Source: Escherichia coli
GTDB lineage: Bacteria > Pseudomonadota > Gammaproteobacteria > Enterobacterales > Enterobacteriaceae
Strand: one strand, 5' to 3'
Assembly: GCF_009931435.1 (NCBI RefSeq)
Contig: NZ_CP043414.1
DNA: 64,000 nt
How positions within the stretch are numbered: position 1 is the first letter of the stretch; every line of letters starts with the position of its first letter. Below are positions 1-3,000 of this stretch, in pieces. The position numbers were made by a program.

Positions 1-3000
1 TATGGAAAACCGCCAGTCGTATGATGCACCGATGGCGCTGGATAGCGATATTCGTCAGCGCTTAGAACTGCTGATTTCGCGTTTTCCGCTATAACCGGAG
101 CAATGATGTCATCTCGTTTGATTATTGCGCTGATTATCATGCTCTTAGCCCCGGGTGTGCAGGCGCACAATTTCGTCACTGGTAAAACGGTTACCCCTGT
201 TTATATCCAGGAAGGCGGCGAGCTGCTTCTGAATAGCGACGACGAAATTCACTACCAAAAGTGGAACAGCACACAGCTGGCGGGAAAAGTCCGCATTATT
301 CAGTATATCGCCGGGCGTAAGTCGGCGAAGAAAAAGAACTCACTGTTAATTAAAGCGGTTGAAGCGGCAAACTTTCCGCAGGATCGTTTTCAGCCCACCA
401 CCATTGTGAACACCGATGATGCCATCTTTGGTACTGGCTATTTTGTCGTTGGCAAAATCGAAAAAAATAAACGCCGCTATCCGTGGGCGCAATTCGTTAT
501 TGACGGCAATGGACAGGGACGCGTTGTCTGGCGGTTGCCGGAGCAGAGTTCAACCATTCTGGTGCTGAATAAAGCCGGGCAAATTCAGTGGGCAAAGGAC
601 GGCAGCCTGACGCCGGAAGAGGTAGATCATGTCATTGCGCTGGCGCAGAAGCTGATCAATGAATAAAAATTCAAAGGATTGAGGGCGTTAGTGAGATGAA
701 GCTGGTTGAACACTACATCATGCGTGGTACGCGCCGTCTGGTGCTGATTATCGTCGGTTTTCTGATCTTTATTTTCGCCAGCTACTCCGCACAGCGTTAT
801 CTGACCGAAGCGGCAAATGGGACATTAGCTCTTGATGTTGTGCTGGATATTGTTTTCTACAAGGTGCTGATTGCACTGGAGATGTTGTTACCTGTTGGAC
901 TGTATGTGTCAGTTGGCGTGACGCTAGGGCAGATGTATACCGACTCGGAAATTACCGCTATTTCTGCGGCGGGGGGGAGTCCGGGACGCTTGTACAAAGC
1001 CGTTCTTTATCTGGCGATACCGCTAAGTATTTTTGTCACCCTTCTGTCGATGTATGGTCGTCCGTGGGCTTATGCGCAGATTTATCAACTGGAGCAACAG
1101 TCGCAGTCGGAGCTGGATGTTCGCCAGTTGCGGGCAAAGAAATTTAACACTAACGATAACGGACGAATGATCCTTTCGCAGACGGTTGATCAGGATAATA
1201 ATCGCCTGACTGACGTGCTGATTTATACTTCTACTGCCAATCGAACCCGTATTTTCCGCGCCCGTTCGGTTGATGTAGTTGACCCATCACCCGAGAAACC
1301 GACCGTTATGTTGCATAACGGGACCGCCTATCTTCTCGATCATCAGGGGCGTGACGACAACGAACAGATCTACCGTAATCTGCAATTGCATCTGAATCCG
1401 CTGGATCAAAGCCCTAACGTCAAACGCAAAGCAAAATCGGTCACGGAGCTGGCGCGCTCCGCCTTTCCTGCCGATCATGCCGAACTGCAATGGCGACAAA
1501 GCCGTGGCCTGACAGCATTGTTGATGGCGCTGCTGGCCATTTCATTAAGTCGGGTAAAACCGCGGCAAGGGCGATTTTCAACGTTATTGCCACTGACGTT
1601 GCTGTTTGTTGCCATTTTTTATGGCGGCGACGTCTGCCGTACGCTGGTGGCTAACGGCGCGATTCCCCTCATTCCTGGTTTGTGGTTAGTACCCGGACTC
1701 ATGCTAATGGGCCTGCTGATGCTGGTAGCACGCGACTTCTCTTTGCTGCAGAAATTTTCCCGATGAATGTTTTCAGTCGCTATTTAATCCGTCATCTCTT
1801 TCTCGGTTTTGCCGCCGCCGCAGGGCTATTGCTGCCGCTCTTTACCACCTTCAACCTGATTAACGAACTGGATGATGTCAGCCCGGGTGGTTATCGCTGG
1901 ACTCAGGCGGTGCTGGTGGTGCTGATGACCTTACCGCGCACACTGGTCGAACTTTCGCCGTTTATCGCCTTATTGGGAGGGATTGTCGGCCTGGGGCAGT
2001 TATCGAAAAACAGTGAGCTTACCGCCATTCGCAGCACGGGGTTTTCTATCTTCCGTATTGCACTGGTGGCGCTGGTTGCCGGGATATTGTGGACTGTTTC
2101 ATTAGGCACGATAGATGAGTGGGTGGCGTCGCCATTGCAGCAACAGGCGCTGCAAATCAAATCGACTGCCACTGCGTTGGGGGAGGACGATGACATTACC
2201 GGCAATATGCTGTGGGCCAGGCGTGGTAATGAATTTGTGACGGTGAAATCGCTGAACGAGCAGGGCCAGCCGGTGGGCGTGGAGATATTTCATTACCGCG
2301 ACGATCTCTCGCTCGAATCCTACATTTATGCACGCAGTGCCACCATTGAAGACGACAAAACGTGGATCCTGCATGGTGTGAATCATAAAAAATGGCTGAA
2401 TGGCAAAGAAACGCTGGAAACATCTGATAATCTTGCCTGGCAATCGGCCTTCACCAGTATGAATCTTGAAGAGTTATCGATGCCGGGAAATACTTTTTCT
2501 GTCCGTCAACTTAATCATTACATCCATTATTTGCAGGAAACCGGGCAACCCAGCAGCGAATACCGCCTTGCACTGTGGGAAAAACTGGGACAACCCATCT
2601 TGACCCTGGCGATGATTTTGCTGGCTGTGCCGTTTACCTTTAGTGCCCCGCGTTCGCCTGGGATGGGTAGCCGTCTCGCTGTAGGCGTCATCGTGGGCTT
2701 ACTCACCTGGATCAGCTATCAAATCATGGTCAATCTGGGATTGCTATTTGCGTTGAGCGCACCTGTTACCGCGCTCGGTTTACCGATAGCGTTTATGCTG
2801 GTGGCGTTGAGCCTGGTGTATTGGTATGACAGTCAACATTAAACCCGCCGTGGCGCAGCACCACAGCGGGCTCACATTACTGCTTCAGAGTAGCAAATGC
2901 CTGAATGATGGCATCGATTTGCTCACGAGTGTGGGCAGCGTTTACGCTACAGCGCAGCAGCGTGATGCCTGCAGGCGCGGCAGGTGGCAGGATAAGATTC

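What the first reader, a model, noticed from the sequence alone, without database searches (positions are those of the whole stretch)
103..2842. LptF/LptG-like permease pair with a YtfJ-like periplasmic protein, convergent on the lipid operon and lacking an ATPase in the window
Two paralogous YjgP/YjgQ-family permeases (stop/start overlap at 1763-1766), distinct from housekeeping lptFG, are preceded by a secreted YtfJ-family protein and end 35 bp from the SPT-like gene. LptFG-type permeases extract glycolipid from the inner membrane, so a second dedicated pair next to a lipid biosynthetic operon suggests an export route for its product. No LptB-like ATPase is visible; the truncated upstream gene tail at 2-94 does not look like one.
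Basis: inference. Interest (0 to 1): 0.72.

Follow-up and report, generated by a model that had tools for sequence, protein, structure and literature searches.

The report
Second LptFG pair for sphingolipid export
Most E. coli strains, though not K-12, carry a second copy of the LPS-extracting membrane pair LptF/LptG next to their ceramide genes, almost certainly to move that lipid out of the inner membrane; this idea has already been published and tested in Caulobacter.

Summary
Window 103-2842 encodes a secreted YtfJ paralogue and then full-length LptF- and LptG-type permeases whose genes overlap by ATGA. They end 34 nt from a convergent aasR-cerR-acpR-spt ceramide operon, with yghO (bCerS) beyond it. 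The window holds no ABC ATPase.

The window is E. coli chromosome. The block is in 4109 of 5426 complete genomes, and housekeeping lptFG is in 5425. K-12 lost the block through an IS5-associated deletion.

In 58 related loci from Enterobacterales to Nitrospira and Desulfuromonadales, no LptF2/G2-type pair sat in a context clearly free of sphingolipid genes, despite several different gene orders. None of the four fully gene-called loci encodes a stand-alone LptB-like ATPase.

Both proteins keep the coupling-helix glutamate that docks LptB. LptG2 has lost or reversed the K34/K40/K41 lipid A-binding charges.

The model is already published. It was proposed in 2024 (PMC11324152). A 2026 preprint showed that Caulobacter LptF2/G2 are needed when anionic sphingolipid is made and that they bind the housekeeping LptB; it also depicts the E. 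coli UTI89 locus.

The new leads are the Enterobacterales-only partners: YtfJ2 (cysteine-less thioredoxin fold), a CHAD-like protein, YghQ and YghRST.

The parts
2..94 (+). Last 31 codons of a 274-aa cytoplasmic protein ('Hyp274', WP_000984955) with a CHAD-like all-helical fold. In strain N96 it is the gene immediately upstream, between yghQ and the YtfJ paralogue.
103..666 (+). YtfJ2: secreted paralogue of YtfJ with a signal peptide ending ...GVQA|HN. It has a thioredoxin-like fold but no cysteine.
696..1766 (+). LptF2: LptF-type permease with a 3+3 hydrophobic-segment layout around a roughly 170-aa periplasmic domain. The coupling-helix residue is Glu85.
   Evidence: TIGR04407 323 bits. Full-length match to solved LptF chains, best P. 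aeruginosa at 2e-32 and E. coli 6mhu_F at 1e-25. 29% identity to K-12 LptF. E85, R34, R315 and F27 conserved in all 48 aligned Enterobacterales sequences, apart from one Tyr at F27. Hydropathy layout and dN/dS 0.055-0.09.
1763..2842 (+). LptG2: LptG-type permease, translationally coupled to LptF2 through the ATGA overlap. Coupling-helix Glu85 is kept; the LPS-binding lysines of TM1 are replaced by N/D/D.
   Evidence: TIGR04408 307 bits. Match to 6mhu_G at 1.4e-41 over residues 3-351. 28% identity to K-12 LptG. Key-residue table. dN/dS 0.04-0.09.
2844..2870 (.). Hairpin in the 34-nt gap between the two convergent operons; a possible bidirectional terminator.
   Evidence: RNA fold -15.7 kcal/mol, z = -2.06. 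This is weak evidence on its own.
2877..4049 (-). spt, serine palmitoyltransferase.
   Evidence: NF047599 599 bits, cut-off 500. The E. coli BL21 enzyme has been assayed biochemically (PMC9386255).
4049..4297 (-). acpR, the specialised acyl carrier protein.
   Evidence: ACP family matches. PMC9386255 (ECD_02853).
4329..5243 (-). cerR, the epimerase/SDR-type ceramide reductase homologue.
   Evidence: SDR/epimerase matches. PMC9386255 (ECD_02852).
5240..6958 (-). aasR, acyl-AcpR synthetase (fatty acyl-AMP ligase type).
   Evidence: NF006624 873 bits. PMC9386255 (ECD_02851).
7321..8463 (+). yghO, the bacterial ceramide synthase (bCerS/aca) homologue.
   Evidence: RefSeq name. PMC9386255 assigns yghO/ECD_02850 as the acyl-CoA N-acyltransferase. 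Homologues of 47-51% identity lie in the distant LptF2 loci.

Best explanation
Window 696-2842 encodes LptF2/LptG2, a second, sphingolipid-dedicated version of the transmembrane half of the LPS extractor. The convergent operon together with yghO makes (dihydro)ceramide, and head-group steps still unknown in E. coli presumably modify it.

Proposed mechanism:
1. A flippase moves the lipid to the periplasmic leaflet. The MOP-family protein YghQ, encoded just upstream in the same orientation, is the candidate.
2. The LptF2-LptG2 heterodimer takes the lipid into its lateral cavity and extracts it from the inner membrane, using ATP hydrolysis by the housekeeping LptB dimer docked on the conserved coupling helices.
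3. The lipid is probably handed to the shared LptC/LptA/LptDE bridge for delivery to the outer membrane.

The secreted YtfJ paralogue is a conserved, Enterobacterales-specific periplasmic accessory of this module. It cannot be a thiol oxidoreductase, and its role is unknown.

Shown here: gene structure, family membership, conservation, linkage to ceramide genes, and the residue pattern. Taken from experiments in Caulobacter: F2-G2 complex formation, LptB binding, and deletions obtainable only without CPG2 synthesis. Inferred: all of this for E. coli, the flippase role of YghQ, and use of LptC/A/DE.
For: Family and architecture:
- Curated LptF and LptG models are exceeded.
- Alignments to solved LptF/G cover the full length.
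- Hydropathy shows a 3+3 hydrophobic-segment layout around a long hydrophilic middle region.

Second copy:
- Housekeeping lptFG is in 5425 of 5426 genomes and this pair in 4109.
- Identity to the housekeeping proteins is only 28-29%.

Linkage:
- 47 of 54 genome loci have ceramide genes within 10 kb despite several distinct gene orders. Six of the rest are truncated, and the last carries the Metallophos and CDP-alcohol phosphotransferase-type genes seen beside the pair in spt-containing loci.
- Four further long-contig loci, including Nitrospira, Halieaceae and a Gammaproteobacteria MAG, carry spt, acpR and a YghO homologue beside the pair; three also carry cerR and aasR.
- LptF proteins of these distant loci score 173-195 bits against LptF2 but 67-76 bits against K-12 LptF.

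ATPase:
- There is no ABC ATPase in the window and no stand-alone LptB-like ATPase in the four fully gene-called loci.
- The coupling-helix Glu (LptF E84, LptG E88) is kept in 48/48 LptF2 and 43/44 LptG2 sequences.

Substrate change:
- The LptG contacts to LPS listed in PMC6744409 are K34, K40, K41 and R133. In LptG2 they become N/D/T, D/E, D and L/Q. K34E is lethal in LptG (PMC6744409).
- LptF R33 and K317 and LptG K62 and R136 stay basic.

Selection: dN/dS is 0.04-0.09.

Literature:
- E. coli BL21 Spt/AcpR/AasR are active (PMC9386255).
- LptF2/G2/C2 plus the flippase CC_1166 were proposed as the sphingolipid export system (PMC11324152 and its S1 Text).
- Caulobacter lptF2/G2 could be deleted only in spt or cpgB mutants; the proteins co-purify with each other and with LptB; the E. 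coli UTI89 locus is shown in Fig. 2B (bioRxiv 10.64898/2026.04.12.717747).
Against: - I found no lipidomic report of an E. coli sphingolipid and no phenotype for these genes, so the substrate is unidentified.
- Direct orthology to Caulobacter CCNA_01214/01213 was not tested here because I could not obtain those sequences.
- LptG2 is not clearly closer to distant sphingolipid-locus LptGs than to housekeeping LptG.
- The Enterobacterales locus lacks the Caulobacter-type head-group genes (DAGK-like CpgB, NTP_transf_3, CDP-OH_P_transf) found in the other loci. The transported lipid may therefore differ, and conclusions from CPG2 may not carry over.
- Sharing of LptB, and any use of LptC/A/DE, is unproven in E. 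coli. Even in Caulobacter the steps after extraction are unknown.
- A quarter of E. coli strains, including K-12, live without the block.
Confidence: 0.75

Rival explanations
1. The pair is a diverged duplicate of the LPS exporter. It would handle LPS or a modified LPS or lipid A variant, and its position next to the ceramide genes would be incidental.
For: Both proteins exceed NCBI's equivalog cut-offs for LptF and LptG, and RefSeq names them 'LPS export ABC transporter permease'. Several basic cavity residues are kept: LptF R33 and K317, LptG K62 and R136.
Against: Linkage to ceramide genes survives several gene rearrangements and spans several phyla. LptG K34, K40 and K41 are replaced by N/D, D/E and D, and K34E is lethal for LPS export (PMC6744409). 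In Caulobacter the paralogues could be deleted only when sphingolipid or CPG2 synthesis was removed (preprint).
Confidence: 0.06
2. LptF2/G2 extract the sphingolipid but do not feed the Lpt bridge. A locus-specific periplasmic factor, with YtfJ2 the obvious candidate, would receive or process the lipid and pass it to another route to the outer membrane.
For: YtfJ2 is secreted, lies in the same orientation 29 nt upstream of lptF2 in E. coli, and is present in 47 of 48 Enterobacterales loci. No duplicate of lptA, lptC, lptD or lptE is linked to the locus. The preprint states that the steps after extraction are unknown.
Against: YtfJ2 has a thioredoxin-like fold, not the beta-jellyroll of LptC/LptA, and no evident lipid groove was examined. 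It is absent from all ten non-enterobacterial LptF2 loci, so it is not a general part of the transport mechanism. LptF2 and LptG2 keep a full-length periplasmic domain.
Confidence: 0.12
3. The permeases are driven by a locus-encoded P-loop protein (YghR, YghS or YghT, just upstream of the window) instead of LptB.
For: Three paralogous Walker-A proteins of 230-252 aa, about the size of an ABC nucleotide-binding domain by my recollection, co-travel with the cluster in 34 of 48 Enterobacterales loci.
Against: They match ABC ATPases only across the P-loop (E about 1e-3) but match dTMP-kinase models over most of their length. They have no SGG signature motif. Pfam gives only generic P-loop hits. 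They are absent from the distant LptF2 loci. Caulobacter LptF2/G2 bind LptB.
Confidence: 0.03
4. In E. coli the block is a largely silent or decaying accessory locus with no current role in envelope lipid transport.
For: About 24% of complete genomes lack it, K-12 lost it to an IS5-associated deletion, and truncated Shigella fragments exist. I found no E. coli sphingolipid reported in the searched literature.
Against: Purifying selection is strong across Escherichia, Citrobacter and Pseudocitrobacter, with dN/dS 0.04-0.09. Gene content is conserved across many enterobacterial genera. The E. coli BL21 Spt/AcpR/AasR enzymes are active (PMC9386255).
Confidence: 0.08

Closest known systems
Caulobacter crescentus LptF2/LptG2 (CCNA_01214/CCNA_01213 = CC_1156/CC_1155), the sphingolipid-locus paralogues of LptFG (PMC11324152; bioRxiv 10.64898/2026.04.12.717747)
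   Same: Both are a second LptF/LptG pair encoded inside the ceramide locus in addition to housekeeping lptFG. Neither locus has an lptB. A MOP-type flippase gene lies in both clusters (CC_1166 and YghQ). The preprint draws the E. coli UTI89 locus beside the Caulobacter one.
   Different: Nothing has been tested in E. coli. The Enterobacterales locus has no LptC2 and none of the CPG2 head-group genes (cpgA-D types). It has instead YtfJ2, a CHAD-like protein and three NMP-kinase-like P-loop proteins. Sequence orthology to the Caulobacter proteins was not checked here.
Housekeeping LptB2FG(C) LPS extractor of E. coli and relatives (PDB 6MHU, 6MIT, 6S8H, 5X5Y)
   Same: Same Pfam family (PF03739) and the same 3+3 hydrophobic-segment layout around a periplasmic domain. 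The coupling-helix Glu is kept. Several basic cavity residues are kept (LptF R33 and K317, LptG K62 and R136). The gene pair is overlapping or adjacent.
   Different: Identity is only 28-29%. LptG2 replaces K34, K40, K41 and R133 with N/D, D/E, D and L/Q. The pair is non-essential and strain-variable. It is linked to ceramide genes rather than to pepA.
YtfJ (b4216; PF09695/TIGR01626), a periplasmic protein of unknown function
   Same: 54% identity over the full length. Both have a signal peptide, and the conserved 'IAGRxSAK' and 'TIVNTDDAI' segments are shared.
   Different: This is a second copy embedded in the sphingolipid cluster, whereas housekeeping ytfJ sits alone between ytfI and ytfK.
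CHAD domains (polyphosphate-binding helical domains; PDB 6QV5, 6RN5, 3E0S; the YgiF C-terminal domain)
   Different: There is no significant Pfam CHAD match (best E 0.087, in 1 of 41 members). No ligand is known. The genomic context is lipid-related.

Membership tests
LptF/LptG permease family (YjgP/YjgQ, PF03739; TIGR04407/TIGR04408) | Sequence match above the curated family thresholds | tested here: met
   LptF2 scores 323 bits against a cut-off of 230. LptG2 scores 307 bits against 240. Each scores far lower on the other model.
LptF/LptG permease family (YjgP/YjgQ, PF03739; TIGR04407/TIGR04408) | Six transmembrane segments (3+3) around a large periplasmic domain | tested here: met
   The hydropathy profile shows three N-terminal and three C-terminal hydrophobic blocks around a hydrophilic stretch of roughly 170 aa. 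Alignments to solved LptF/G chains cover residues 4-353 and 3-352. The beta-jellyroll fold itself was not modelled.
LptF/LptG permease family (YjgP/YjgQ, PF03739; TIGR04407/TIGR04408) | Coupling-helix glutamate that docks the LptB groove (LptF E84, LptG E88) | tested here: met
   LptF2 E85 is conserved in 48 of 48 sequences and LptG2 E85 in 43 of 44. The functional role of these residues rests on my knowledge of Simpson et al. 2016 (PMC5082905), which I did not re-read.
LptF/LptG permease family (YjgP/YjgQ, PF03739; TIGR04407/TIGR04408) | Basic residues that bind the lipid A phosphates and inner core (LptG K34, K40, K41, K62, R133, R136; LptF R33, K317; PMC6744409) | tested here: not met
   LptG2 has N/D/T at K34, D/E at K40, D at K41 (44 of 44) and L/Q at R133. 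Only K62 (as R), R136 (as K/R) and LptF R33 and K317 (as R) remain basic. The pair belongs to the fold family but is not a faithful LPS-binding equivalog. The result depends on an alignment at 28% identity.
LptF/LptG permease family (YjgP/YjgQ, PF03739; TIGR04407/TIGR04408) | Forms an ABC transporter with an LptB dimer | not testable with these tools
   This needs co-purification or complex modelling. It has been shown only for the Caulobacter paralogues.
Sphingolipid-locus LptF2/LptG2 (Caulobacter type) | Encoded within or next to the spt/acpR/cerR/aasR/bCerS locus | tested here: met
   True in the window and in 47 of 54 plus 4 of 4 related loci. The rest are truncated or carry the Metallophos and CDP-alcohol phosphotransferase-type genes that follow the pair in the spt-containing loci.
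Sphingolipid-locus LptF2/LptG2 (Caulobacter type) | A second copy in addition to a housekeeping lptFG | tested here: met
   Housekeeping lptFG is in 5425 of 5426 E. coli genomes and the second pair in 4109.
Sphingolipid-locus LptF2/LptG2 (Caulobacter type) | No dedicated lptB in the locus | tested here: met
   for the window, for the upstream flank, and for other taxa. In those taxa only MsbA-like fused exporters appear, and in two loci only.
Sphingolipid-locus LptF2/LptG2 (Caulobacter type) | Forms a clade with sphingolipid-locus LptF/G of other taxa, separate from housekeeping LptF/G | tested here: inconclusive
   For LptF the pattern is clear: 173-195 bits against LptF2 versus 67-76 bits against K-12 LptF. 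For LptG the scores are similar: 142-160 versus 129-148 bits.
Sphingolipid-locus LptF2/LptG2 (Caulobacter type) | Deletion tolerated only when (anionic) sphingolipid synthesis is abolished; binds LptB | not testable with these tools
   These are genetic and biochemical tests, reported only for Caulobacter.
YtfJ_HI0045 family (PF09695/TIGR01626) | Full-length profile match above threshold, plus a signal peptide | tested here: met
   209 bits against a cut-off of 151 and Pfam 1e-58. 54% identity to K-12 YtfJ. There is an N-terminal hydrophobic segment at 1-26.
Periplasmic thioredoxin-fold oxidoreductases (TlpA/ResA/DsbE/CcmG, peroxiredoxins) | Catalytic CxxC or a peroxidatic Cys | tested here: not met
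   [not shown]
CHAD domain (PF05235) | Sequence profile match; two four-helix bundles with conserved His and basic residues | tested here: inconclusive
   [not shown]

The most novel reading that the evidence does not exclude
In Enterobacterales the LptF2/G2 extractor would be part of a conserved module of up to 13 genes whose accessory set is unlike the Caulobacter/Nitrospira type. That set comprises three NMP-kinase-like P-loop proteins (YghR/S/T), a CHAD-like and therefore possibly polyphosphate-binding cytoplasmic protein, the MOP flippase YghQ, and the cysteine-less thioredoxin-fold periplasmic protein YtfJ2.

This would mean that most E. coli strains can make and surface-expose a still undescribed sphingolipid with a head group different from ceramide phosphoglycerate, perhaps a phosphorylated or pyrophosphorylated ceramide. 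YtfJ2 would be a new kind of periplasmic lipid-handling factor acting with a hybrid LptB2F2G2 machine.
Probability: 0.2. Interest if true: 0.7.

Novelty: new member of a known kind. Interest (0 to 1): 0.4.

Why it matters
E. coli is the reference organism for LPS transport, yet about three quarters of its strains encode a second LptFG that K-12 lacks. If it exports a sphingolipid by borrowing LptB, and perhaps the whole Lpt bridge, two lipids would compete for one essential machine. That matters for outer-membrane biology, for host interaction of commensal and pathogenic strains, and for the Lpt-targeting antibiotics now being developed.

The concept is not new: it was proposed in 2024 and tested in Caulobacter in 2026. 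The added value here has three parts.
- It gives a systematic co-occurrence test of the concept.
- It shows charge reversal at LPS-binding positions of LptG2.
- It identifies Enterobacterales-specific partners (YtfJ2, the CHAD-like protein, YghQ, YghRST). These point to an uncharacterised lipid and give YtfJ-family proteins their first functional context.

Tried and rejected
- **YghR/S/T as the missing ABC ATPase: rejected.** They resemble dTMP kinases over most of their length, match ABC ATPases only at the P-loop, and have no signature motif.
- **YghR/S/T as homologues of the Caulobacter ceramide kinase CpgB: rejected.** CpgB is a DAGK-type kinase with a GGDG motif (PMC10331486).
- **YtfJ2 as an LptC/LptA-like bridge protein: rejected.** Its fold is thioredoxin-like, not a beta-jellyroll.
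- **YtfJ2 as the periplasmic electron donor for CerR: rejected for thiol chemistry.** CerR is reported to be periplasmic in Caulobacter (PMC11087976), but YtfJ2 has no cysteine.
- **L048 (Geobacter) as a counter-example lacking spt: rejected.** Its neighbours are the same Metallophos and CDP-alcohol phosphotransferase-type genes that follow the pair in the spt-containing Nitrospira-type loci (against 73, 74).
- **Context look-ups of three 50%-cluster representatives gave contigs too short to judge**. I replaced them with long-contig relatives.
- **The PADLOC scan of the accessory proteins found nothing**.
- **Sequence searches of the PDB with YtfJ2, Hyp274 and YghR found nothing significant**.
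- **The promoter and terminator consensus scans did not exceed the shuffled expectation**.
- **I could not obtain the Caulobacter LptF2/G2 sequences,** so no direct orthology test or tree was made.
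Full report
**What is in the sequence.** The window is E. coli chromosome. Bases 1-9400 match 4625 of 5426 complete E. coli genomes, and 4050 of them cover at least 80% of the query. The best match is 99.2% identical, to strain N96.

On the + strand lie three ORFs:
- a 187-aa ORF at 103-666
- a 356-aa ORF at 696-1766
- a 359-aa ORF from the ATG at 1763 to 2842

The last two overlap by ATGA. On the - strand, starting 34 nt after the LptG-like stop, lie four genes:
- spt at 2877-4049
- an ACP gene at 4049-4297
- an epimerase/SDR gene at 4329-5243
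- a fatty acyl-AMP ligase gene at 5240-6958

These are followed by yghO (+, 7321-8463), glcC and glcDEF.

NCBIfam places the three + strand proteins above curated cut-offs: YtfJ 209 bits (cut-off 151), LptF 323 (230) and LptG 307 (240). The SPT scores 599 bits against a cut-off of 500. Pfam confirms YtfJ_HI0045 at 1e-58.

**These are real genes and a second copy.** LptF2 and LptG2 align over their full length with solved LptF and LptG chains. The E. coli entry 6MHU gives 1e-25 and 1.4e-41; the best LptF match is the P. aeruginosa protein at 2e-32. Identity to the K-12 proteins is only 29% and 28%.

Hydropathy shows three N-terminal and three C-terminal hydrophobic blocks around a hydrophilic middle of roughly 170 aa, the LptF/G layout. 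dN/dS against orthologues in Escherichia, Citrobacter and Pseudocitrobacter is 0.055-0.09 for LptF2, 0.04-0.09 for LptG2 and 0.10-0.27 for YtfJ2.

Housekeeping lptFG DNA is found in 5425 of 5426 genomes, and the YtfJ2-LptF2-LptG2 block in 4109. In K-12 MG1655 an IS5 element sits between the 5' end of yghO and a truncated yghQ, and everything in between is missing.

**No ATPase in the window.** A six-frame motif scan finds only two Walker A sites. They fall in GspE (27598-29091) and a PilT-family ATPase (50347-51402). No ORF carries both a Walker A and an ABC signature.

I built a profile from 13 enterobacterial LptF2 sequences and scanned one genome per species (GTDB). That gave 54 loci. I then searched each locus with the 13 E. 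coli proteins of the region.
- LptG2 follows LptF2 in every locus that extends far enough to show it.
- 44 loci contain spt within 10 kb, 45 contain at least four of the five ceramide genes, and 47 contain at least one.
- This holds across several different gene orders: convergent as in E. coli, upstream of yghT, or with the block inverted.
- Six of the seven loci with no ceramide gene are cut by a contig or storage end on the side where the operon lies in their relatives.
- The seventh, a Geobacter MAG (L048), has downstream of the pair the same Metallophos and CDP-alcohol phosphotransferase-type genes that follow the pair in the spt-containing Nitrospira-type loci (against 73, 74).

An exhaustive search of 1.84 billion cluster representatives shows a clear gap. 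Enterobacterales proteins are at least 55% identical, and everything else is 38% or less.

I looked up four of those more distant relatives that lie on long contigs: a Gammaproteobacteria MAG, a 4.7-Mb genome I did not identify, Nitrospira and Halieaceae. Each has the pair beside homologues of spt and acpR and a roughly 380-aa YghO homologue, and three of the four also have cerR and aasR homologues. None of the four has a stand-alone LptB-like ATPase; two have an MsbA-like fused ABC exporter.

LptF proteins from the distant loci score 173-195 bits against E. coli LptF2 but only 67-76 bits against E. coli LptF. For LptG the two scores are similar.

The pair therefore does not occur widely without the biosynthetic genes, and the interpretation survives its own test.

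**Hints about mechanism from residues.** The contacts between LPS and LptFG are listed in the cryo-EM study PMC6744409. I aligned 44-48 enterobacterial paralogues with the K-12 proteins.
- The coupling-helix glutamates (LptF E84, LptG E88) are conserved in 48 of 48 and 43 of 44 sequences. This is compatible with docking on an LptB dimer.
- On the LptF side, R33, K317 and F26 are kept (as R34, R315 and F27).
- On the LptG side, K62 and R136 stay basic.
- K34 becomes N, D or T. K40 becomes D or E. K41 becomes D in all 44. R133 becomes L or Q. D37 becomes N or S.
- K34E is lethal for LPS export (PMC6744409).

The cavity rim that grips the bis-phosphorylated disaccharide and inner core of LPS has therefore been remodelled. 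This is as expected for a smaller, different head group, and it argues against a simple LPS-exporter duplicate. The inference depends on an alignment at about 28% identity.

**What is already known.**
- Padilla-Gómez et al. 2022 (PMC9386255) showed that the E. coli BL21 proteins ECD_02851, ECD_02853 and ECD_02854 are AasR, AcpR and Spt, and assigned ECD_02852 and yghO as the reductase and the N-acyltransferase.
- PMC11324152 (2024) proposed that CC_1156/CC_1155 (LptF2/LptG2), CC_1168 (LptC2) and the Wzx-like CC_1166 form a sphingolipid export system.
- The preprint by Uchendu, Isom and Klein (bioRxiv 10.64898/2026.04.12.717747, April 2026) gave the experimental support in Caulobacter:
  - lptF2, lptG2 and lptC2 can be deleted only in spt or cpgB mutants.
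  - LptF2 and LptG2 co-purify with each other and with the single LptB.
- The same preprint notes that lptF2/G2 are present in many alpha- and gammaproteobacterial sphingolipid loci, shows the E. coli UTI89 locus in Fig. 2B, and says the steps after extraction are unknown.

What remains untested is E. coli itself.

**What seems not to have been described.** In the Enterobacterales loci the pair travels with a set of genes absent from all ten non-enterobacterial loci:
- YtfJ2, in 47 of 48 loci
- the CHAD-like 274-aa protein, in 44 of 48
- the MOP-family YghQ, in 41 of 48 (Polysacc_synt_3 at 1e-6). It is analogous to CC_1166.
- three paralogous P-loop proteins, YghR/S/T, in 34 of 48. They are weakly dTMP-kinase-like.

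The Caulobacter-type head-group genes seen in the other loci (DAGK_cat, NTP_transf_3, CDP-OH_P_transf, Metallophos) do not appear among the annotated genes around the E. coli cluster.

These features suggest that the enterobacterial lipid has a different, still unknown head group. This is speculation, marked as such.

**Verdict.** The most likely mechanism is an LptB-powered LptF2-LptG2 extractor for a ceramide-based lipid made by the adjacent genes. A MOP flippase would act upstream, and the shared Lpt bridge probably acts downstream.

Confidence is about 0.75 for the dedicated-exporter role. It is lower for the sharing of LptB and the bridge in E. coli.

Novelty is low for the central claim: this is a new member of a kind already described, and one already pictured in a preprint. 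It is moderate for the accessory genes.

Noticed in passing
[not shown]
   Followed up: partly
L001 7507-9875 (yghT, yghS, yghR; just upstream of the window): Three paralogous P-loop proteins that weakly resemble dTMP kinases flank the cluster in 34 of 48 Enterobacterales loci. They are neither ABC ATPases nor homologues of the DAGK-type ceramide kinase CpgB. They might phosphorylate the lipid head group.
   Followed up: partly
L001 9921-11270 (yghQ): YghQ is a MOP/Wzx-type protein (Polysacc_synt_3) directly upstream of the 274-aa gene, whose start overlaps the yghQ stop in strain N96. It is analogous to the proposed Caulobacter sphingolipid flippase CC_1166. In K-12 it is truncated by the IS5-associated deletion.
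   Followed up: partly
window 103-666: YtfJ2 has a thioredoxin/peroxiredoxin-like predicted fold but no cysteine. By my reading, an invariant AGRxSAK segment sits where the CxxC motif would be. The YtfJ family appears uncharacterised in the searched literature.
   Followed up: partly
L060 (K-12 MG1655 3129043-3132408): In K-12, IS5 (insH9) joins the 5' end of yghO to a truncated yghQ, removing eight genes (the 274-aa gene through aasR). The standard laboratory strain therefore cannot be used to study this system.
   Followed up: yes
L062-L065 and L048: Non-enterobacterial LptF2/G2 loci carry a recurring set next to the pair: two NTP-transferase genes, a Metallophos gene, a CDP-alcohol phosphotransferase gene, a DAGK_cat gene and a 317-aa gene of unknown family. 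Two loci also have an MsbA-like ABC exporter, and the Halieaceae locus has three sulfotransferase genes, which hints at a sulfated sphingolipid.
   Followed up: no
window 2844-2870: A GC-rich hairpin (-15.7 kcal/mol, z = -2.06) fills the 34-nt gap between the convergent lptG2 and spt stop codons. It may be a bidirectional terminator, though it has no T-run.
   Followed up: partly
window 18377-34472 and 50347-51402: The rest of the window holds the sslE and type II secretion (gsp) region, including GspE at 27598-29091, and a PilT-family ATPase gene at 50347-51402. Neither is related to the finding.
   Followed up: partly
proteins P0103, P0106 and others: Many truncated or fused LptF2 variants exist in public data, for example 238-243-aa fragments including one from Shigella boydii. 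This indicates recurrent pseudogenisation of the locus in some lineages.
   Followed up: no
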